From positions 32,001-96,000 of IMG/VR virus record IMGVR_UViG_3300045594_000145: a stretch of DNA of 64,000 nt; one strand, given 5' to 3'. This stretch comes from a virus (Duplodnaviria; Caudoviricetes). Under the pieces are notes generated by a model. The model searched no databases, was not told where the DNA came from, and saw nothing but the letters and a program-made list of their open reading frames with translations. Of the stretch, positions 6,879 to 35,285 are shown in pieces. A program made the position numbers and the translations under genes. The first letter of the stretch is position 1; each line of letters opens with the position of its first letter.

Positions 6879-7860
6879 AATACATAGGTTATAGCCTGTA
6901 TTCAGAATTGCACTGAATGTTATCTACTAAGACAGACAGTTTAGCAGGATTATCGCACCTGCTAGGCGACTTAGGCTGAGAAAATTGACCTTCATTTACT
7001 TACATCCTTGCTCGGTTGGCCGCGCAATTTCACACAACTGTTTTACAATTGTAGTAAGTATCGACACTGGTTTTGTGAAAACCAGCAAACTCTTACTATA
7101 TCCTCAGATAACTTTCCTTTCCTAACAGCTCCCCTTGGAAGGGTTCGATAGCTCCCGCCACCTAAGTTAAATTAGTAATTGTACTTGTTTGCCCTATACC
7201 TTGCGAGCTAGTAGCATCTGTATGTTACAACAGAATAAGTCGATATGTCAGAATATAGTCGAGCACGCTTTTGCTTTTGTTAGAAAACTTTTCAATATCC
7301 AATTGATTTTTCATATTTTCATAAAAGTTTCGCGTAATAACGATTTATTAGTCGATGTGGTGCTCGTTCGGTATCCCACTCTTTTGGAGTGGATCCAACC
7401 AACACCGCCTTCCTTTCGCGTCACCTACTCAGTTTATTTGCTGTTTACAAGTGATGTTTCAATCGACTCGTTGCAAATAATGAAGCCCGCACTTAAGTTT
7501 GACGAACTTTGCACGAACAACCTCTATCCGTAATCGTATATTTCTATACTTATTTACCGGCTACGAACCGATAACTGCTCTAATAACTATAAAATCTGCA
7601 CGAAGTTATAGCTAGCACTACGCATAATATAGAGTCTTTCTGTGGAAGCATTACACTCGCAAAGCACGTTGAACTTTGCTTTGGCCCCATTACTGGGGTT
7701 ATCCTTGGCTACGGCTACGAAGACTAGCCGCTGAGAATTTAGCTTATTGACCGAAGTCATAATTTCTAGGCAATACCACGTAGAGGTATCTCAATCATTG
7801 CCCGACTGGCTTGCGCCAGCTTCTTTTGTCGTTTCTATTAATAAATTAAGTTTTCCTTAA
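6850..7860 (-). ncRNA. large structured ncRNA, ROOL/GOLLD class (ROOL favoured)
   Basis: ~1 kb with no credible ORF between a sigma-A promoter and a terminator; dense hairpins; motifs CUGAGUAGG, GGUGUUGG..CCAAAAG..CACCAC, GCAAAAGCGUGC and 3' UCUCAGCC recalled as ROOL-like; near tRNA cluster. Confidence 0.65.
7732..7803 (-). ncRNA. HDV-like (theta-type) ribozyme R7
   Basis: P1 GGGCAAU/AUUGCCU, P2 UGAGAU/AU(U)CUCA, P3 ACC/GGU, L3 UCUACGU, P1.1 CU/AG, P4 with UUCG loop, J4/2 GCUAA. Confidence 0.85.
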
Positions 7861-8999: not shown

Positions 9000-9071
9000 T
9001 GCGTCCAGAAGGGGACGATCCTTCGACTGGCCCTTATCAGGAGCCTGTTTTTACCGTTGAACTATACGAAT
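9000..9071 (-). pseudogene. degenerate tRNA-Ile(GAU)
   Basis: D, anticodon (CUGAUAA) and T arms present; acceptor stem does not pair. Confidence 0.6.
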
Positions 9072-12097: not shown

Positions 12098-12727
12098 CTA
12101 TAAATATTCAAAATGATAACCCAAATAGCTTGTTTTGTTATTATATCCAGTAAGAGACTCACTTATCTTTTTCCCTACATTATCCACTTTTTTGGTTCTT
12201 GTATAGTTGTTATCTATCAACCACTGAGCACATTCAACTACAGAGGAAAACTCTTTTTCTAATTCTTTAACTTTAATTGGTTTTGCGTGAATTTCTGCAC
12301 TACTTTTTATCGGAATATTATTTTGAATTAATATATCATGAACGCTATCTGTAGATATTCCTAATTTCGTGGCTGTTTTTCTTATATTCTGTTCTTCTTT
12401 ATAAGTTTTAATAACAAGATCTCTATCAATATAAGGTTTTCCATCCCCGCCTTTTGTTGCGTTATACCCATTTCCATAAGAGCCGTATCGACTAATCCAA
12501 TAGATTTCTCTTTCTTCAGCTTCTGAATCTTCACATTGTTCTACCTCTTCAACTGAAAAATTTTCAACACCATATTTGTTCATGGCAGAATAAAGAGGCC
12601 GGTGTTCCATCCGACATTTCTTATAATCTTGACAATGTTCTTTAAATCTTTTTTCTATCGTGCCCAGAGTTTTTCCGATATAAATTTTGCCATTAATTGA
12701 ATTTGTTATTTTATAAATATATGCCAC
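12098..12727 (-). CDS. free-standing GIY-YIG homing endonuclease
   Basis: YIYKITNSINGKIYIGKT..RFKEH..E..W..GYN..GGDG; C-terminal HTH/NUMOD; GTG start with AAGGAG. Confidence 0.9.
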   Translation of the reverse strand: MAYIYKITNSINGKIYIGKTLGTIEKRFKEHCQDYKKCRMEHRPLYSAMNKYGVENFSVEEVEQCEDSEAEEREIYWISRYGSYGNGYNATKGGDGKPYIDRDLVIKTYKEEQNIRKTATKLGISTDSVHDILIQNNIPIKSSAEIHAKPIKVKELEKEFSSVVECAQWLIDNNYTRTKKVDNVGKKISESLTGYNNKTSYLGYHFEYL

Positions 12728-17625: not shown

Positions 17626-18285
17626 TCACTTCTCGCAGAAGTCACAAACTTTAACCTTAGTGACAATGCGGCGCCCTCTGCGGTCACGCAATTCAAGAAT
17701 AGGCTTACAGACAAGGCCTTCCATCACTAAAGAAGGATCCTCAGCAACAAGAGAAGTAGGCTTTGTCTTGACAAAAGCAATAGCTTCAGCTAGTGTCGCA
17801 GAAGGAAGTACAACTGGGGCCGCAGATATACCAAATTTAGTGGCAACATCTTCAACATCCTGCCGAGAAAGGTATAGGTCGCCCTCAGGGAAATATACAT
17901 CAAAGAGCGCAAAGCCGCAAGAGTCGTGTAAATATCTTCCTCCACCCTTTTGAATCTTCGCCCCATAACCTTCTCCAAAGAGAATAACCTGAGTCGAGCC
18001 AAAGACTTGCTCAAAGAGTTCCTCGGTGTTAGAGTCTCCAAAAGTAGAAGTCAAGTAGAAAACTAGATTAGAAGGAAGTTGCGCCCTGTCAGTGTGTCCC
18101 GCAAAAGATACTCGATGCCCATCCCAGATAACTCTGGTATTAGTTCCGTCAATTTTTTCAGTGCAACAGAATGGCAAGTCTTTAATAAACTCAAGTTCCT
18201 CAGAACGATATGCGCCCTCTATTAACCTCTTAGTCCCATCTTCCGCTCTGCGGAATGGAGTTTCTATCTTTTGATATTCAATCAT
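17626..18285 (-). CDS. ATP-dependent RNA ligase (Rnl2-like nucleotidyltransferase)
   Basis: motif I TEKIDGTN, LFGEGYG, FALFDV, MEGLV, TKVK. Confidence 0.8.
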   Translation of the reverse strand: MIEYQKIETPFRRAEDGTKRLIEGAYRSEELEFIKDLPFCCTEKIDGTNTRVIWDGHRVSFAGHTDRAQLPSNLVFYLTSTFGDSNTEELFEQVFGSTQVILFGEGYGAKIQKGGGRYLHDSCGFALFDVYFPEGDLYLSRQDVEDVATKFGISAAPVVLPSATLAEAIAFVKTKPTSLVAEDPSLVMEGLVCKPILELRDRRGRRIVTKVKVCDFCEK

Positions 18286-21124: not shown

Positions 21125-21415
21125 TTAGTTGTCGGCCTTCAAATTATAAATAGGATATAAGTGATCAAGAACCTCCGCAGTAGGCGCGATTAATTCTTCA
21201 ATCTCTGCGGCGTCCTTATAGGCATCTGGGGCTTCGTCTAAAGTATTGGCAGAAACAGAGGTAGTAACAATATCTTCCATCTGCTCCTTATAGGCATTGA
21301 GATCAATTGTTGCCTTAGCAACTGTTCTACTCATTGCGCGACCCGCGCCATGTGGGGCTGAGCAGTTCCATTCTTCATTCCCTAGACCCCTACAAATTAG
21401 AGTGCCGGCGCGCAT
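21125..21415 (-). pseudogene. rtcB: C-terminal fragment of RtcB RNA ligase
   Basis: GNEEWNCSAPHGAGRAMSR and TLDEAPDAYK are RtcB C-terminal motifs; N-terminal metal-binding region absent; no clear RBS. Confidence 0.8.
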
Positions 21416-25351: not shown

Positions 25352-25664
25352 AATTGTATTCTCCTTTTCTTTATACATATAGTATACCATAAAAGGTAAA
25401 AAACGTCAACAGAGAAGTTTTAGAGATCTTGATAGTATTGTTACCAAAGCACGGAGCGCAATTTCTACTAAGATGTCAACTAAGATCCCACATGACGAGT
25501 CGATCTCCTGTTCACACACTTTTCTGTCCTTCCCCCACTTTTTATCTACTTTTCTCCCACATTTTGCAGGAAATCTTCACTTTTGGTAGCACTGTTTCTT
25601 CCGGTTTTTAGATATGATTTTAGCTTAATCGTTCATTTAGGCTCAGAAAAACGGGTAAATATCC

Positions 25665-26480
25665 GAAAAAGGGCAAAAGCTAAATTTAAAGCTGCTCAGA
25701 ATCAGCCAAAAGCTTAATTTTCATAGTAAAAAATCGGACAAAAGACTCCTCCGGAGAGAAAAAATTTGCTCTGTGTTTCGTCGGCAAGGCTCTATGCTTT
25801 TAGCTTATCTTAAAGTGCGCGCACGCCCATCATTGGGTTCAATTCTTCAGTCATTATTCCACTATTTGCGGCTAGACATTCCCTAATTTTTGTCTAAAAA
25901 GTCAGGTTTCCCCCATATTTGGTCGAGTTTCTTACATTTTCCCCACAATTTCATCGAGTTTCCTACAATTTTCTCATCCTTCCATCCTATTTCTTCTAAA
26001 AACTGCCTATCCCGCAACGTCTTTTTTCTATTACTGCCAATTATGTGATTTTTATAGCTTTTTCCCTTGTTTTTTCACATATTTATGCTAATAGAGCAAA
26101 TTAAATTTTTCCCTCTACTCTCCCAAAGGAAGGGGCAAAAAGCGCTTTCTTATTCAGCTAGAATTCAGCGAAAAGCTTGATTTTTGAGTCAAAAAATATG
26201 ACAAAACAACTTTCGGAGAGAAAATTTTGTCCTGTGTAATGTCAGAAGAACATTATGCTTTTAGCTGGTTGAAAATCCTGCGCAAAGAGTGCGGCCAGGT
26301 ATGTCAGGATGCGCCGCATTTCAATAAAAACACCTGTGATATAGCTTTAAATTTTTTTTACGGGTATTTACTCGAAAAATGGAAAAACGCTTTTTTAAAG
26401 CGCTAAATAGGAAGCAAAAAGCTTGTTTTTTGAGTCAAAAATCATGACAAAAGACTGCCCGGAGAGGAAAATTTTAGTTA
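25665..26480. repeat. three degenerate ~100-140 bp direct repeats in a 1.4-kb non-coding tract
   Basis: AAAAGCTT..TTTT..AGT.AAAAA...GACAAAA..CT..CGGAGAG.AAA.TTT at ~25708, ~26171 and ~26417. Confidence 0.8.
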
Positions 26481-26824
26481 AAAATCTGACACAGGAGTAC
26501 ACCCAATTTTTGATTTTAGAAGATATTGCGCGATGGACACTTTCTAAAATTTGTCTACCATTTGAAGTCTCACTAGTCCGCCATTTCGGGTTGGACTTTT
26601 TTGCCGTTTCAGTGGTCAAGATTTCCTTGACAAGTGGCCGACATGCGCGTAAAATTGTCGCGTTTGACGGGACACTGTATCTCTTAGTTGCGCCGCAGTT
26701 TATAATTTACTCCAAAAATTTTGTGTACCATTTTCAGAATACAGAATTTTTTTAAGCTTTTTGCACAAAAAAAAATTGTGTACTCATTTCAGAATACAGA
26801 AATTTTTCCAGCTATGGGCGCAAT

Positions 26825-26853
26825 AAAAAAGAGAAGCCGCAAGGCTTCTCTCT
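26825..26853 (-). terminator. intrinsic terminator
   Basis: GAGAAGCC-UUGC-GGCUUCUC + U6. Confidence 0.8.
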
Positions 26854-26863
26854 AGGTCAACTA

Positions 26864-27157
26864 TTAGAACCAGAATGGAAAATTGAAAATTGAATCAAAG
26901 ATATCGGTTGGCTTGTCATCAATGCGCGTCTCAACAGAGAACCAGGTGCCGTAATCCTTGATGAACTGATTCTTCAATTCATTGTAGTGATCGATTGCGT
27001 CTTCAGCAGACTTCTGCGCCTTCTCAACCTCAGCCGCACGCGCCTTCTTTTCTGCGTTCTTCTTCTTTGTGAGTTCTGCGCTCTTGGCTGCTTCTACTTC
27101 AGCCTTCTTTGCATCCTCGATGTTGTCAAATGTCTTTGTTCCTACTAAATACTTCAT
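26864..27157 (-). CDS. hypothetical coiled-coil protein
   Basis: start MKYLVG after AAGGAG; Ala/Lys-rich. Confidence 0.7.
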   Translation of the reverse strand: MKYLVGTKTFDNIEDAKKAEVEAAKSAELTKKKNAEKKARAAEVEKAQKSAEDAIDHYNELKNQFIKDYGTWFSVETRIDDKPTDIFDSIFNFPFWF

Positions 27158-27211
27158 GTGTTTTCTCCTTTGCGGCCCTTGCTGCCGTCTTACTACTGCG
27201 TCTATCACGCA

Positions 27212-27234
27212 GGAAAAACCTGCCGAAGCAGGTT
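27212..27234 (-). terminator. terminator-like hairpin closing the ribozyme array
   Basis: AACCUGC-UUCG-GCAGGUUUUU. Confidence 0.7.
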
Positions 27235-27289
27235 GTATGCGTAAATGATATATACGTAGAATTATCCCAGTGGATTATCATTTACGACT

Positions 27290-27374
27290 AGAGAATTGGT
27301 TCTTCTACTTCGGCGGCGAACCGCTTCCTTGAATTAGTAGACTGCGCCGCATAGAGGCTTCTCTTATGCAGTCC
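27290..27374 (-). ncRNA. HDV-like ribozyme R6
   Basis: P1 GGACUGC/GCAGUCU, P2 AGAGAA/UUCUCU, P3 GCC/GGC, L3 UCUAUGC, P1.1 U-A, J4/2 AACCAA. Confidence 0.8.
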
Positions 27375-27544
27375 TAATCAAATCATAATACACATACTTC
27401 TCAGGTATGCCGAGGCTTATTTGCACTGGTCATGACTCCACGCTTATTCGCCATTTCTGCCGCAACCTACTTTCATCGCGATGTCCAGTAAGTTCTTTTG
27501 GTGTAACCATCCTAACAGTAAGGACTGGTAAGATTTGATTGTGA

Positions 27545-27610
27545 TAGATTTAGTTCTCTCGCCCAAGAGCAAGTCCAGCCGCACCCCGTGGAGGTATCTA
27601 ACTTGCGGCC
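27545..27610 (-). ncRNA. HDV-like ribozyme R5
   Basis: P1 GGCCGC/GCGGCU, P2 UAGAU/AUCUA, P3 ACC/GGU, L3 UCCACGG, P1.1 CC/GG, P4 CUCUU/GAGAG, J4/2 AACUAA. Confidence 0.9.
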
Positions 27611-27860
27611 ACCCGCTTATCTTATTGAAAGCGGTAGAAAGTCAGTTTTGCTCTTTGAAAAGCTAAGTCAACCTGCCGCCGCAGGATTTAAAGCGTACGC
27701 AACTCTTCTTTTTGGTTAAGAGAGGTATTGACGAGAGAACCGCCCCACGTCTGGGGACTTAGTGGCTTAAGCTTTGACTTCGTACAGTGCTACACTAACT
27801 GAAGTCTAGGCGTTAGTATGTCATTACATTGCAGTAATGGATACTTAATCCTTGTATTTT

Positions 27861-27931
27861 GGGTACGTCTGGAATCGAACCAAAACCTTCTCCCCATACA
27901 AGAGGAGATGCACAGCCACGCACTGTATACC
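27861..27931 (-). ncRNA. degenerate tRNA-like domain inside the ribozyme array
   Basis: T-arm UUUGG-UUCGAUU-CCAGA, extended anticodon arm UCUCCUC-UUGUAU-GGGGAGA, partial acceptor GGUAU/GUACC. Confidence 0.6.
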
Positions 27932-27959
27932 GTCAGGGTCTTTCACCAAAGGATTATTT

Positions 27960-28030
27960 GTAGAACTTTGTTTAGTCTGGAGCTACCAAATTGTCCACTC
28001 TCGCCACGGGGAGGCGTCTACTATGAGAGC
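27960..28030 (-). ncRNA. HDV-like ribozyme R4 (bulged P2)
   Basis: P1 GCUCUC/GAGAGU, P3 GCC/GGC, L3 UCCCCGU, P1.1 CC/GG, P2 GUAGAC/GU(U)CUAC, J4/2 CAAA. Confidence 0.65.
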
Positions 28031-28086
28031 ATATAGATTGCGCGGTTACTTACTTGGGCGCGCCAATGAACCGTCTGCCGCAATCT

Positions 28087-28140
28087 TGATGTATTAGTTG
28101 GATATCCAGACACGCCACGAGGAGGCTACATCATGTGTCC
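28087..28140 (-). ncRNA. minimal theta-type ribozyme R3
   Basis: GGACAC-A-UGAUGUA-GCC-UCCUCGU-GGC-GUGUCU-GGAUAUCC-AACUAA-UACAUCA; all HDV elements present. Confidence 0.92.
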
Positions 28141-28608
28141 ATCCCCTTGCCTAGGAGCTACCTAGACAGGAGTTATATGCTTTCCCTAAGCAGGGGCCGA
28201 AGCCCAAGGGGTTAGTTCGCGTGGGAAACTACCAAGGTGCTAAATCCGATCGGTTGCGCGCAATTTTCCTGACACTCTTTAGACTCGCGAGGAAAATTTC
28301 TAATTCTACGAGCAAGCTTTTCTCTTCTTTATACTTGGTGAGCGTTCATCCAAGCGGCGTTTACTTCTTTATCCTCGCATAAACACCAAAACGCGAGTCG
28401 GCCGCAGGCCGTTTATCCTTTAATTTTACCACTAGAGAAGTAGGAATATGGGTATGTTCACTCGCGGAACATACAAGTAGCGCTTTGCTCTAATCACGGG
28501 ATAGAGGTACGAGATCGGCAGTTCCTGTTTACCGCAAAGGTGGAGGTTTAGGGGTGCGTGAACCTGTTTCTTTCAATTATAACGCCCGAAGTTCTAAGAG
28601 GCAGCTTA

Positions 28609-28938
28609 TTACTTATTAGCTTTATAATTCTTCCAGAAATCGGAGTTGACTATAAAGTTATTCATATGGAGATAGAAGTTATCACTATAACCGGTTGCCG
28701 CATTAGTCATGTGATACTGATCAAACCATGCTTCTTCACTGTAACCATTTGCTCTATCGTGGAAAGTAACACGATACACTGAATTGACGCCACTGTGGTC
28801 TTCATACCTATTATCGTATCTTTCATGGATAACCGCGTAGAAGCGACCTTTGTAAACGTCCTTTTCTATTTGTTTATTCATGTGACGAACAGCAGTTCTA
28901 GCGCGTCTTTTATTCGCTCTTACTTTTTTGTCTATCAT
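28609..28938 (-). CDS. hypothetical basic protein embedded in the ribozyme tract
   Basis: start MIDKKV after GAGGGAG RBS and promoter. Confidence 0.7.
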   Translation of the reverse strand: MIDKKVRANKRRARTAVRHMNKQIEKDVYKGRFYAVIHERYDNRYEDHSGVNSVYRVTFHDRANGYSEEAWFDQYHMTNAATGYSDNFYLHMNNFIVNSDFWKNYKANK

Positions 28939-28963
28939 GTTAACTCCCTCACTTTCTATATAT

Positions 28964-28992
28964 ATTATATCATAGATTTTGAAGATTGTCAA
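28964..28992 (-). promoter_or_regulatory. sigma-A promoter driving ORF 28609 and ribozymes R3-R6
   Basis: TTGACA-17-TATAAT with TG extension. Confidence 0.85.
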
Positions 28993-29001
28993 GCAGATGT
29001 T

Positions 29002-29057
29002 TGATGATTCTCAGTAGAAGAGCAGTTGCGCCGCGAGCAGGCGATCATCATGCAACC
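29002..29057 (-). ncRNA. HDV-like ribozyme R2
   Basis: P1 GGUUGC/GCAACU, P2 UGAUGAUC/GA(A)UCAUCA, P3 GCC/GGC, L3 UGCUCGC with compensatory P1.1 GC/GC, J4/2 CUGA. Confidence 0.75.
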
Positions 29058-29109
29058 ATATGGGGAGCCGTCTGGCAAACGACTCCCAGCAAAAGAGAGA
29101 GTATACAAA

Positions 29110-29171
29110 CGAACTTTTAGAACCCGAAGGGGTAGCCGCATTGCCACGTCAAGGCAAGTTCGATAATGCGG
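29110..29171 (-). ncRNA. HDV-like ribozyme R1 (non-canonical C at +1)
   Basis: P1 CCGCAUU/AAUGCGG, P2 CGAACUU/AAGUUCG, P3 GCC/GGC, L3 UUGACGU, P1.1 G-C, P4 ACCC/GGGU, J4/2 UCUAA. Confidence 0.75.
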
Positions 29172-29203
29172 GAGTCAATGCCCCGAAGGGCATCGACCGA
29201 TAA

Positions 29204-29572
29204 TTACTTAGCGAGACTGTAAACCTTAGTCTTCTTCTCGCCGTCTGCTGAAACAGCCTTACCAGCCTTAACAAGAGCTGTTAATGCGCCGATAGCCTGA
29301 GCAGTTGTGATGTTAGCCTTAGCTGCGATATCCTTAGAACCTGCTGGTTCATCAGTCAGAACCGCAAGGACTGCGGCCCTACGAGCTTCAACTTCAGGAT
29401 CAGCCTTACGGACTACTGGGTGAGCCTTACGATACTCCTTAACATGAGCATCCTGTTCGATCTTTGCATCAACCCAAGCTGCCAGTTCAGCATCTGTATT
29501 TCCATTAGCGGTGAGGAAGTCCTTAATCATCTGTAAACCCTTAGTGTTAGTGATTTTTTCTGTCTTTTCCAT
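29204..29572 (-). CDS. small basic protein with C-terminal winged-HTH (paralog of 29798)
   Basis: PEVEARRAAVLAVLT...SKDIA..A.GALTALVKAG; biased codon usage. Confidence 0.8.
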   Translation of the reverse strand: MEKTEKITNTKGLQMIKDFLTANGNTDAELAAWVDAKIEQDAHVKEYRKAHPVVRKADPEVEARRAAVLAVLTDEPAGSKDIAAKANITTAQAIGALTALVKAGKAVSADGEKKTKVYSLAK

Positions 29573-29797
29573 GATTTTCTTTTCGAGATTTTATAATCTC
29601 TTTCCCTTTCTTATAAGTACATTATACCATATAATTTTGAAATCGTCAATAATTTTTTTGTAAGATTTTTTCTTTGGGAATTTTCCCTTTCCTTACCTTA
29701 CATAATAATTATAACATATTTTTTTGAGTCTGTCAACAACAATTTATTTAAGCGATGAGAGGAAGTGCGCGCTGGGCGCACTTCCGATCAGTGAAGG

Positions 29798-34267: not shown

Positions 34268-34723
34268 TTACGCTTTTGCCAAACCTTTAAGGACTTCTAA
34301 CATCCCGCTCGATGAATTGATTGCCTTACCAATCTGCCATTCTTGTAAATTCTTTTCTTCGTCATCAAACAGGATAGCGCCCGCTTGATTGTCTTTGAAA
34401 AATGAATTCTTTGCCGTTCCGTAAGGGACAATGTGAACTTCATCATATGGGAAATGATGCTTCTTTAACCAATTTAACTTTACCTTTGTGACTTTGCGGT
34501 CATACTCTGGGGTACTTGTTTTCGATAACCAACTAACAATTACAATCTTGTACCCTTGCGCTTTGAGTGTACGCACTGCCTTATTGAGGCGGCGCATATC
34601 ATACTTTGGCTTTGCCTGCGTATATGGGTTAGTCTTTCCAGCTTTCAAAGATGAAAGCCAGCCTTCGACATGGTAGAACTCATTCAGAGTCCCATCCATG
34701 TCGAACACCAGTGTCTTATTCAT
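34268..34723 (-). CDS. HAD-superfamily phosphatase (5'-nucleotidase-like)
   Basis: VFDMDGT motif I; ILFDD motif IV. Confidence 0.8.
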   Translation of the reverse strand: MNKTLVFDMDGTLNEFYHVEGWLSSLKAGKTNPYTQAKPKYDMRRLNKAVRTLKAQGYKIVIVSWLSKTSTPEYDRKVTKVKLNWLKKHHFPYDEVHIVPYGTAKNSFFKDNQAGAILFDDEEKNLQEWQIGKAINSSSGMLEVLKGLAKA

Positions 34724-35285
34724 AGTCTTTAGTTCCTCTCTTAATTACCCCATAGATTTTGCGATTGAATTTGACATTATCTGTGCGATATATCAACATG
34801 TATTCGTCTGTATCTCTTCTGGTTACGTACTTTTTTAGTACGCTCATTTTGTGCGTCTGCGCATCGACTGAAGTAAGACGATTGTTTCTTAATTCAAGAT
34901 TGAAGACATGCGCGCCACCTTCATCCCAAGCAATATGAATGATATAGCGACCGCATCCATTATTGCTATGCCGCCTTGTCCATTCTGAGATTTCTCTCAT
35001 ATTCACAACAGGGCATCTTTCAACCTTGCCAAAGGTATTTGACCAGAGGTACAGATATTTATCCCTATCGCCTTTATATGTTTTGGCTTGAACATTGTAA
35101 CCCCGTCTTAACAATTCATAGGCAAGGACGCAACGCTGACAGTTCATAGAGTAACTGTCTGAAGAAGGCGAATAGTTGGGGTTCGCCTTTTTGATTGCCA
35201 GCTTGATTGGATAGGGTTTATGCTTTTCGCCGATTGCCTTTAAGGTAGTTTCGGGAAGTCTTGTGAAATCTTTCATAGATATCAT
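34716..35285 (-). CDS. papain-fold toxin glutamine-deamidase domain protein
   Basis: NCQRCVLAYELLRRGYNVQA, GAHVFN, VDAQT (C-H-D triad pattern). Confidence 0.7.
   Translation of the reverse strand: MISMKDFTRLPETTLKAIGEKHKPYPIKLAIKKANPNYSPSSDSYSMNCQRCVLAYELLRRGYNVQAKTYKGDRDKYLYLWSNTFGKVERCPVVNMREISEWTRRHSNNGCGRYIIHIAWDEGGAHVFNLELRNNRLTSVDAQTHKMSVLKKYVTRRDTDEYMLIYRTDNVKFNRKIYGVIKRGTKDYE

What the first reader, a model, noticed from the sequence alone, without database searches (positions are those of the whole stretch)
27212..29200. Array of six HDV-like ribozymes that would cut an early transcript into stem-closed RNA modules
Seen: six minus-strand elements (29171-29110, 29057-29002, 28140-28087, 28030-27960, 27610-27545, 27374-27290) fit the HDV nested double pseudoknot (P1, P2, 3-bp P3, 7-nt L3, P1.1, C-N-R-A J4/2) despite unrelated stem sequences. 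Predicted products are 114, 917, 110, 420, 236 and ~160 nt, and the tract ends in a UUCG terminator. Known: phage theta ribozymes were described mainly as single elements next to tRNAs. Here none follows a canonical tRNA, and I found none in the real tRNA cluster. Inference: a self-processing polycistronic ncRNA operon that releases several discrete structured RNAs without a protein nuclease. This is the best candidate for an undescribed system in the window.
Basis: partly seen in the sequence, partly recalled or inferred. Interest (0 to 1): 0.95.

Follow-up and report, generated by a model that had tools for sequence, protein, structure and literature searches.

The report
Phage array of HDV-like self-cleaving ribozymes
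A 109-kb uncultured phage has six hepatitis-delta-type (theta-like) self-cutting ribozyme motifs in a 2-kb, largely non-coding stretch of its early region, plus a seventh in front of a GOLLD giant RNA, which suggests it uses ribozymes instead of nucleases to cut long transcripts into separate folded RNAs and mRNAs.

Summary
All six minus-strand elements fit the HDV nested double pseudoknot at the stated coordinates. My descriptor expects 0.16 such loci in shuffles of this 2-kb tract. A covariance model trained on four elements recovers the other three, with noise near 11 bits.

I found a seventh copy at 7803-7731. It lies behind its own promoter and about 320 nt upstream of a GOLLD RNA match.

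A 96%-identical metagenome contig shows selection. Synonymous divergence is 9.8%, yet rz2 plus its hairpin has 0 changes in 108 nt, rz3 differs only at the free N of C-N-R-A, and one cargo hairpin carries two compensatory pair changes. rz1 is the weakest element.

The ribozymes are new members of the known theta (minimal HDV-like) class. What is new is the arrangement: a dense array with no tRNA link, which cuts two early transcripts into mRNAs and structured RNAs. "Single ncRNA operon" is only partly right, because the tract contains a promoter and a real 109-codon gene, and the terminal hairpin is probably leaky.

Cleavage itself is untested, and the RNA-library contigs were uninformative. 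Unchecked earlier notes of this scan report ribozyme-punctuated RNA modules in other phage and giant-virus genomes.

The parts
29708..29736 (-). Consensus sigma-70 promoter (TTGACA-17-TATAAT with TG) driving the wHTH gene and rz1/rz2
   Evidence: 12 of 12 matches
29204..29572 (-). wHTH-like ORF (122 aa). Its 3' UTR carries rz1 and rz2
   Evidence: weak DprA_WH hit; 5 synonymous and 3 non-synonymous differences from L134
29174..29198 (-). 10-bp UUCG hairpin ending 2 nt before the rz1 cut site
   Evidence: z = -6.3; in the variant a G.U pair becomes A-U
29110..29171 (-). rz1, the weakest element. P1 ccgcatt/aatgcgg, P2 cgaactt/aagttcg, P3 gcc/ggc, L3 ttgacgt, P4 accc/gggt, candidate catalytic C29120
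   Evidence: 19.2 bits when held out. C1 instead of G1 and one P1.1 pair. The variant has a 1-nt insertion in the core
29058..29109 (-). Module A: spacer plus an 8-11 bp hairpin ending 5 nt before the rz2 cut
   Evidence: z = -3.3; 0 differences from L134
29002..29057 (-). rz2. P1 ggttgc/gcaact (G1.U), P2 tgatgat/atcatca, L3 tgctcgc with covarying P1.1 (GC/GC), almost no P4, J4/2 ctgaga (C29014)
   Evidence: rz2 plus module A has 0 of 108 differences against 10.6 expected
28964..28992 (-). Consensus promoter inside the tract. A similar promoter sequence recurs elsewhere in the genome
28609..28938 (-). ORF109, a real protein-coding gene of unknown family
   Evidence: no family; 7 synonymous and 2 non-synonymous differences
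28141..28608 (-). 468-nt non-coding 3' region of ORF109. It includes a near-neutral stretch M1 (28253-28494) and a fully conserved 71-nt cloverleaf-like module (28211-28141) whose 7-bp terminal stem ends 2 nt before the rz3 cut
28087..28140 (-). rz3. P1 ggacac/gtgtct (G1.U), P2 tgatgta/tacatca, core gcc-tcctcgt-ggc, P1.1 CC/GG, minimal L4, J4/2 ctaa (C28097)
   Evidence: the only variant change is the N of C-N-R-A
28031..28086 (-). Module C, a 56-nt stem-closed RNA. Its inner hairpin is supported by two compensatory pair changes (28065/28055 and 28064/28056)
27960..28030 (-). rz4. P1 gctctc/gagagt, core gcc-tccccgt-ggc, P1.1 CC/GG, P4 tttgg/ccaga, catalytic C probably C27970 (CAAA) and not C27975
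   Evidence: 17.7 bits to RF02682; 34.8 bits when held out; C27975 is T in the variant while the core is unchanged
27860..27932 (-). Degenerate tRNA-like element. It has a canonical GGTTCGATTCC T arm, but the acceptor and D stems are imperfect
   Evidence: ARAGORN only; no Rfam tRNA hit at E up to 10; no close paralogue
27763..27845 (-). Module M2, two hairpins. It is nearly identical in relatives whose flanks differ, and 27845 is a module boundary
   Evidence: tables 5, 5c, 7, 8
27545..27610 (-). rz5. P1 ggccgc/gcggct (G1.U), core acc-tccacgg-ggt (close to published theta-0001), P1.1 CC/GG, P4 ctctt/gagag, J4/2 ctaa (C27553)
   Evidence: Variant strains change 27605-27607; two of the three changes keep pairing as G.U, and 27552 is the N of C-N-R-A
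27375..27544 (-). Module E, a 170-nt multibranch RNA closed by a 9-bp stem that ends 1 nt before the rz6 cut
   Evidence: z = -1.2
27290..27374 (-). rz6. P1 ggactgc/gcagtct (G1.U), P2 agagaa/ttctct, core gcc-tctatgc-ggc, long P4 with a UUCG hairpin, J4/2 ccaa (C27299)
   Evidence: 23.7 bits when held out; only one P1.1 pair
27214..27234 (-). UUCG hairpin with a U run (terminator-like), probably leaky
   Evidence: the downstream ORF has no promoter
26828..27157 (-). ORF97 (27157-26864) and a strong intrinsic terminator (26853-26828), the likely true end of the transcription unit
7731..7803 (-). rz7, the seventh HDV-like ribozyme. P1 gggcaat/attgcct (G1.U), core acc-tctacgt-ggt, covarying P1.1 (CU/AG), P4 hairpin, J4/2 ctaaat (C7742). 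It lies about 60 nt downstream of the promoter at 7900-7872
   Evidence: (18.8 bits to RF02682)
6973..7410 (-). GOLLD RNA 3' domain, a full-length match to RF02032. From the rz7 cut to the GOLLD end is 831 nt
   Evidence: 97.1 bits, E 1e-25 to 1e-27, below the gathering score of 150

Best explanation
The six elements, and a seventh elsewhere in the window, are HDV-like self-cleaving ribozymes of the minimal theta type. As the host RNA polymerase transcribes from the strong early promoters at 29736 and 28992, each ribozyme should fold and cut at its own 5' edge. Each cut leaves a 2',3'-cyclic phosphate 1-5 nt after a stable closing stem. The downstream piece begins with a 5'-OH buried in the ribozyme's own P1 helix. 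The transcripts would then fall into these parts: the wHTH mRNA capped by a hairpin; a 114-nt RNA of rz1 plus a hairpin; the ORF109 mRNA with a long tail ending in a cloverleaf-like module; three ribozyme-headed structured RNAs of 110, 420 and 236 nt, the 420-nt one holding a tRNA-like element; and an rz6-headed RNA that ends at a leaky hairpin or continues into ORF97. The ribozymes would thus define RNA ends and insulate neighbours without any protein, fixing the termini of folded non-coding RNAs and uncoupling the fates of adjacent mRNAs. The stems differ between copies, so tandem ribozymes cannot mispair with each other. rz7 would do the same job for a GOLLD RNA by removing its roughly 60-nt leader. 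What is shown: the motif fit, the clustering, sequence conservation in a variant strain, and the transcription signals. What is inferred: catalysis, the product ends and the biological role.
For: The motif fits at all six stated sites, against 0.16 loci expected in shuffles. Domain by domain they correspond to the published theta-0001 layout, P1|J|P2|ACC|T|CC|ACGT|GGT|P1'|GG|L4|CTAA|P2'. A covariance model of the 5' core gives seven hits at 39-45 bits, and the next best hit in 64 kb scores 11.5 bits. A model trained on rz2, rz3, rz5 and rz7 recovers the held-out rz4 (E 2.6e-7), rz6 (4e-4) and rz1 (8e-3). P1.1 covaries between copies: CC/GG, GC/GC and CU/AG. In variant contig L134, synonymous divergence is 0.098. 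Against that, rz2 plus module A has 0 of 108 differences (P = 1.5e-5), the cloverleaf module 0 of 77 (P = 3.6e-4), the rz4 core 0 of 36, and rz3 differs only at the free N of C-N-R-A. Module C shows two compensatory pair changes. Perfect promoters lie upstream, and there is no SD-led ORF in 28608-27205. Every cut site lies 1-5 nt after a closing stem, the same geometry as tRNA acceptor stems before theta ribozymes. The phage also encodes an RNA ligase (PF09414, 17626-18285), a gene class reported as enriched in theta-carrying phages.
Against: There is no cleavage assay and no RNA end data. Rfam's HDV models do not reach their thresholds. rz1 lacks G1, has one P1.1 pair, and in the variant carries an insertion at the L3/P3' junction. 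rz6 has one P1.1 pair. rz2, rz4 and rz7 need a longer J4/2 than the strict theta layout allows. Contigs from RNA libraries bridge the predicted sites at 27610, 28030, 28140 and 29057 at low depth, so uncut copies exist there, either precursor RNA or contaminating DNA. The large cargo segments are not more stable than shuffles, and M1 evolves at the neutral rate. The conservation argument rests on one pairwise comparison, and phage mosaicism could mimic it. No syntenic array was found in other phages.
Confidence: 0.6

Rival explanations
1. The ribozymes mainly serve the flanking protein genes. As UTR insulators they set mRNA 3' ends (wHTH, ORF109) and a protected 5' end (ORF97) and so tune stability and translation. 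On this reading the RNA between them is mostly spacer with local hairpins and has no function of its own.
For: rz1 and rz2 lie in the wHTH 3' UTR, rz3 ends the ORF109 transcript, and rz6 precedes the promoterless ORF97. The large cargo segments have unremarkable folding z-scores, and M1 diverges at the neutral rate. A review proposes mRNA and polycistron processing for bacterial hammerhead and twister ribozymes.
Against: Three ribozymes (rz3, rz4, rz5) follow one another with no ORF between them. Module C has compensatory changes, the cloverleaf module has 0 of 77 differences, and M2 is almost identical in relatives with different flanks. rz7 precedes a GOLLD RNA and not a gene.
Confidence: 0.15
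2. The tract is the decayed remnant of a tRNA/theta-ribozyme array. The tRNAs once trimmed by these ribozymes have eroded into tRNA-like stubs, and the ribozymes persist with no current role.
For: A degenerate tRNA-like element with an intact T arm lies at 27932-27860. A cloverleaf-like 71-nt module with a 7-bp terminal stem precedes rz3. rz1 looks degenerate. In some strains the block holding rz4 and the tRNA-like element is replaced.
Against: rz2, rz3, the rz4 core and several cargo modules are far more conserved than synonymous sites. The cargo is not recognisably tRNA: there is no Rfam tRNA hit at E up to 10, and its similarity to the phage's own tRNAs is no greater than the background among unrelated tRNAs. 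The 20 intact tRNAs of this phage have no ribozyme after them.
Confidence: 0.12
3. The motifs do not cleave. They are either chance look-alikes or structural double pseudoknots within a larger ornate RNA, GOLLD/ROOL-like, that works as one long molecule.
For: No Rfam HDV hit reaches threshold. RNA-library contigs bridge the sites. The same phage has a GOLLD RNA with such a motif in front of it.
Against: Chance is excluded by the shuffles and by the held-out covariance-model hits. The catalytic C, the R and the A of C-N-R-A are kept while the free N varies in two ribozymes. The layout matches theta ribozymes shown to cleave in vitro. No large-RNA family matches the tract at E up to 10.
Confidence: 0.08

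Closest known systems
Theta ribozymes, the minimal HDV-like ribozymes of Caudoviricetes (Kienbeck et al. 2024, PMC10879173)
   Same: The fold and domain order are the same, and the core is nearly the same (ACC/GCC-T-CC-NCGT-GGT/GGC ... GG ... CTAA). The cut site lies just after a terminal helix. They occur in a tailed phage of Bacillota type, in the sense orientation within non-coding DNA, and the genome carries an RNA ligase.
   Different: None is within 5 nt of a tRNA 3' end, and this phage's 20 tRNAs lack ribozymes. Six are packed into 2 kb, whereas the paper's main text never uses the words array, cluster or consecutive. Five of the seven keep a P4 hairpin. P1 is 6 bp in four of them. The sample comes from sludge, manure or wastewater and not from human gut. 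There is no suppressor tRNA. The sequences are not in the held parts of the paper's supplements.
Clustered self-cleaving ribozymes (hammerhead, twister and others) near phage genes in bacteria (review PMC6765202)
   Same: Several self-cleaving ribozymes lie close together in phage-related DNA. Their proposed role is processing of polycistronic transcripts into pieces with different stabilities.
   Different: The ribozyme class differs: here all are HDV-like, in tandem on one strand, and interleaved with conserved structured RNA modules.
GOLLD RNA (RF02032; Kretsch et al. 2025, PMC12286853)
   Same: It is a large phage RNA near a tRNA island with a variable 5' region that sometimes holds tRNAs. 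One copy is present in this window at 7410-6973.
   Different: The array itself matches no GOLLD or ROOL model. The papers I read do not mention an HDV-like ribozyme at the head of a GOLLD transcript.
HDV-like ribozymes at the 5' ends of R2 and L1Tc retrotransposon RNAs (review PMC6765202)
   Same: The ribozyme cuts its own 5' side, freeing a ribozyme-headed functional RNA from a longer co-transcript.
   Different: The setting here is not eukaryotic and there is no reverse transcriptase. There are several orthogonal copies in series.

Membership tests
HDV-like self-cleaving ribozymes | Nested double pseudoknot: P1 starting at the cut site, P2 pairing J1/2 with the 3' end, a 3-bp P3 closed by a roughly 7-nt L3, and P1' directly after P3' | tested here: met
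   All seven elements meet it; shuffles expect 0.16 per 2 kb
HDV-like self-cleaving ribozymes | A two-pair P1.1 between L3 and J1/4 | tested here: inconclusive
   Both pairs form in rz2, rz3, rz4, rz5 and rz7, with covariation (CC/GG, GC/GC, CU/AG). Only one pair forms in rz1 and rz6
HDV-like self-cleaving ribozymes | Catalytic cytosine at the start of J4/2 (C-N-R-A) | tested here: met
   Present in all seven. In variants only the N changes, in rz3 and rz5. In rz4 the choice between C27975 and C27970 is ambiguous, and the variant keeps C27970
HDV-like self-cleaving ribozymes | G1 forming a G.U or G-C pair at the base of P1 | tested here: inconclusive
   G1.U is present in rz2-rz7; rz1 has C1-G
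HDV-like self-cleaving ribozymes | Mg2+-dependent self-scission abolished by a C-to-U change | not testable with these tools
   This needs a bench assay; contig-level RNA data were uninformative
Rfam HDV families (RF00094, RF02682 and relatives) | Score at or above the gathering threshold | tested here: not met
   Best scores are 17.7 bits (rz4) and 18.8 bits (rz7) to RF02682, whose gathering score is 44. These models were built from P4-containing, non-phage members
Theta ribozymes (Kienbeck 2024) | Passes the published RNArobo descriptor: fixed T-CC-NCGT core, GG, short L4, CTAA-type J4/2 adjacent to P2' | tested here: inconclusive
   The descriptor is held only as an image. Compared with the delimited theta-0001 sequence, rz3 and rz5 match best. 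With C-N-R-A 0-1 nt before P2', rz1, rz3, rz5 and rz6 pass and rz2, rz4 and rz7 do not. Several have longer P4/L4 regions
tRNA-associated theta ribozymes | Cut site within 5 nt of a tRNA 3' end | tested here: not met
   No tRNA ends at any cut site. The one ARAGORN call (27932-27860) lies downstream of rz4 and 250 nt upstream of rz5
GOLLD / ROOL ornate RNAs (for the array itself) | Match to RF02032 or the ROOL model | tested here: not met
   No such hit at E up to 10 in 26800-29600. GOLLD does match at 6973-7410

The most novel reading that the evidence does not exclude
The phage may run a protein-free RNA-processing system. In it, a set of mutually orthogonal HDV-like ribozymes would release a family of discrete structured RNAs: a ribozyme-headed GOLLD RNA, tRNA-like and cloverleaf-like RNAs, and small stem-closed modules. 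All would carry 5'-OH and 2',3'-cyclic-phosphate ends. Those ends would make them dedicated substrates of RNA-repair or ligase enzymes (the phage RNA ligase, or a host RtcB), for example for circularisation or joining. This would give the hundreds of orphan theta ribozymes a general function as end-makers for phage non-coding RNAs.
Probability: 0.12. Interest if true: 0.85.

Novelty: new variant of a known kind. Interest (0 to 1): 0.6.

Why it matters
Theta and minimal HDV-like ribozymes are numerous in phages, but only the tRNA-linked ones have a proposed job. The published survey left 526 occurrences in non-coding DNA unexplained. This locus gives a concrete and testable answer. Ribozymes would define the ends of phage non-coding RNAs and mRNAs, as a series of orthogonal cutters in one transcript. 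One copy sits at the head of a GOLLD RNA, whose maturation and function are both unknown. If the cuts are real, the locus also supplies seven natural, non-cross-pairing ribozyme insulators and a set of new structured RNAs to study.

Tried and rejected
- **Relatives by flanking or embedded proteins.** ORF109, ORF97, an ORF97 alignment and the methyltransferase found no relatives in IMG/VR or JGI metagenomes.
- **Exact-word searches.** rz3, module M2 and the cloverleaf module had no match in IMG/VR. The M1 word had no match in GTDB genomes. It had one match in JGI metagenomes, L134, which I used.
- **Generic two-core patterns for arrays in IMG/VR.** The loose pattern gave 120 or more hits, and those I examined came from GC-rich genomes with none a convincing array. 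The tight pattern gave 3 hits with no ribozyme fold.
- **Phass-1,** the nearest named phage by capsid (37.7% identity), shows only background-quality descriptor hits.
- **blastn against INPHARED.** The array found nothing. The rz7/GOLLD region matched only promoter-like words in Lactococcus 949-type phages.
- **C-to-A/G/U control motif.** This control, taken from the theta paper, was confounded in my looser descriptor because the A-rich J4/2 also matches A/T-N-R-A.
- **RNA-library contigs.** Uneven cover, one 240-nt contig of depth 95 over 28253-28494 from a roughly 90%-identical relative, and parts without cover cannot show expression, RNA ends or cleavage.
- **A giant ornate RNA spanning the array.** This was rejected: no Rfam hit, and the largest segment has z = 0.2.
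- **A diversity-generating retroelement as the cause of M1 variation.** This was rejected because, by eye, the substitutions in the L134 alignment are not adenine-specific.
- **RNA-repair genes.** There is no CCA-adding enzyme, and only a 96-aa C-terminal RtcB fragment.
- **Relatives for a virus record.** The genome search does not draw relatives for a virus record.
Full report
**Setting.** The window is bases 32001-96000 of a 108,945-bp IMG/VR virus record with direct terminal repeats. Its capsid is most like those of Phass-1, the Enterococcus EF1-type phages and the Lactococcus 949-type large siphoviruses. Sequencing runs that hold this tract come from sludge, manure, pig and wastewater samples. 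The early genes lie on the minus strand behind perfect TTGACA-17-TGnTATAAT promoters. A similar promoter sequence recurs at several other places in the genome.

A covariance model of the 5' core (P1, P3, L3) scores the seven at 39-45 bits. Nothing else in the 64 kb scores above 11.5 bits. That model was trained on all seven, so I built a second from rz2, rz3, rz5 and rz7 only. It still ranks the held-out rz4 (34.8 bits), rz6 (23.7 bits) and rz1 (19.2 bits) directly above the noise. P2 and J4/2 are not in these models and so count as additional evidence.

[quoted passage not shown] Four such ribozymes were shown to self-cleave in vitro, and cleavage was lost on a C-to-U change. Rfam 15 has no theta model, and its HDV models give only sub-threshold hits to rz4 and rz7. 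I therefore class the elements as new members of the HDV-like/theta class, with some caveats. rz1 has C1, one P1.1 pair, and an insertion in the variant strain. rz6 has one P1.1 pair. rz2, rz4 and rz7 need a longer J4/2.

**Natural variation.** One JGI contig (L134, 1,536 nt) is 96% identical to 27934-29460. In the two ORFs it covers, synonymous divergence is 0.098 and non-synonymous divergence is 0.013. ORF109 is therefore a real gene (7 synonymous, 2 non-synonymous differences). Measured against that neutral rate:
- rz2 plus module A has 0 of 108 differences (P = 1.5e-5).
- The 71-nt cloverleaf-like module before rz3 lies in a 77-nt stretch with 0 differences (P = 3.6e-4).
- The rz4 core has 0 of 36.
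- rz3 has one change, at the unconstrained N of C-N-R-A.
- Module C has four changes that make two compensatory base pairs (T-A to C-G, G-C to A-T).
- rz1 (3 of 62) and M1 (20 of 242) are not distinguishable from neutral.

In rz4 the variant turns C27975 into T but keeps CAAA at 27970 next to P2', so C27970 is the more likely catalytic base.

Other strains, seen in laid contigs, change the rz5 P1 at 27605-27607. Two of the three changes keep pairing as G.U, and the partner strand could not be read. They also change the N of the rz5 C-N-R-A. In those strains a different short sequence replaces the block holding rz4 and the tRNA-like element upstream of 27845, while the 83-nt module M2 stays nearly identical. 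These data come from few strains, and phage mosaicism could also produce patches without differences.

**Anatomy of the transcripts.**
- The promoter at 29736 drives the wHTH ORF (29572-29204), then a 10-bp hairpin, rz1, a second hairpin and rz2.
- The promoter at 28992 drives ORF109, then 468 nt of non-coding RNA ending in the cloverleaf-like module, then rz3.
- Next come module C, rz4, the tRNA-like element, M2 and further hairpins.
- Then follow rz5, the 170-nt module E, rz6 and a UUCG hairpin with a U run.
- Last comes ORF97, which has a ribosome-binding site but no promoter, and then a strong terminator at 26853-26828.

There is no SD-led ORF in 28608-27205. Every cut site lies 1-5 nt after a hairpin or a module-closing stem. 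The small hairpins are very stable (z = -3.3 to -6.3). The large segments are not (z = 0.2, -2.2, -1.2). The ARAGORN "tRNA-Thr" is degenerate and gets no Rfam tRNA hit.

**Seventh copy and GOLLD.** rz7 lies about 60 nt downstream of the promoter at 7900-7872 and directly after a small hairpin. About 320 nt further on, the Rfam GOLLD model matches over its full length (97.1 bits, E 1e-25, below the curated cut-off of 150). From the rz7 cut to the GOLLD end is 831 nt, in line with the statement that many GOLLD RNAs exceed 800 nt and have a variable 5' region. This suggests that the ribozyme trims the GOLLD leader. I could not test whether this holds for other GOLLD loci.

**Mechanism and rivals.** The best reading (0.6) is co-transcriptional self-cleavage that defines RNA ends and insulates neighbouring RNAs. 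The rivals are:
- UTR insulators with spacer cargo (0.15).
- A decayed tRNA/theta array (0.12).
- Non-cleaving or chance motifs (0.08).

RNA-library contigs bridge several sites at low depth. That neither proves nor excludes cleavage, because DNA can be present in such libraries. The phage has an RNA ligase and a PNKP-phosphatase-like ORF, but no CCA-adding enzyme and only an RtcB fragment.

**Novelty.** The ribozyme class is known, and non-tRNA theta hits in non-coding DNA have been published without a function. Clustering of other self-cleaving ribozyme classes near phage genes is also known. In the papers I read I found no description of a dense tandem array of HDV-like ribozymes interleaved with conserved RNA modules, or of a ribozyme-headed GOLLD RNA. 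Unchecked notes of this scan describe ribozyme-punctuated or ribozyme-headed RNA modules in several other phage and giant-virus genomes, so this locus is probably one case of a wider pattern.

Noticed in passing
window 6973-7410 (-), with rz7 at 7803-7731 and a promoter at 7900-7872: There is a full-length match to the GOLLD RNA model (97.1 bits, E 1e-25, below the gathering score of 150). It lies about 320 nt downstream of a seventh HDV-like ribozyme and a strong promoter, so the ribozyme may form the 5' end of the GOLLD RNA.
   Followed up: partly
window 21125-21415 (-): A 96-aa ORF matches only the last 100 positions of RtcB (PF01139, 57 bits). The upstream ORFs show no RtcB similarity, so this is a stand-alone fragment or a remnant of an RNA ligase that joins 2',3'-cyclic-phosphate and 5'-OH ends.
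   Followed up: partly
window 17626-18285 (-) and 34268-34723 (-): An RNA ligase (PF09414, E 2.7e-15) and a weak PNKP-phosphatase-like ORF are present. The theta-ribozyme paper reports RNA ligase genes as enriched in phages that carry these ribozymes.
   Followed up: no
window 27846-28039: In other strains (a pig DNA run and a wastewater RNA run) this block, which holds rz4 and the tRNA-like element, is replaced by a short unrelated sequence containing TTTTTTATACCGG. The flanking 83-nt module 27763-27845 stays nearly identical, so RNA modules appear to be exchanged as cassettes.
   Followed up: partly
window 28253-28494: A wastewater RNA library holds a 240-nt contig of depth about 95, roughly 90% identical to this stretch, while neighbouring contigs have depth 3-7. 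In the JGI variant the same stretch diverges at the neutral rate. Whether it is an abundant RNA of a relative is unclear.
   Followed up: partly
window 9006-9066 (-): An extra weak tRNA-model hit (29 bits, partial model) lies beside tRNA-Phe. ARAGORN does not call it, so it is probably one of the broken tRNA genes of this cluster.
   Followed up: no
window 34716-35285 (-) and 12098-12727 (-): There is a papain-fold glutamine deamidase-like ORF (PF15644) in the early region, and a GIY-YIG homing-endonuclease-like ORF between the two tRNA blocks.
   Followed up: no
window 25390-26830: This is a further stretch of about 1.4 kb with only small ORFs, next to the array's terminator. It has no Rfam match at E up to 1 and no HDV-like motif.
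   Followed up: partly
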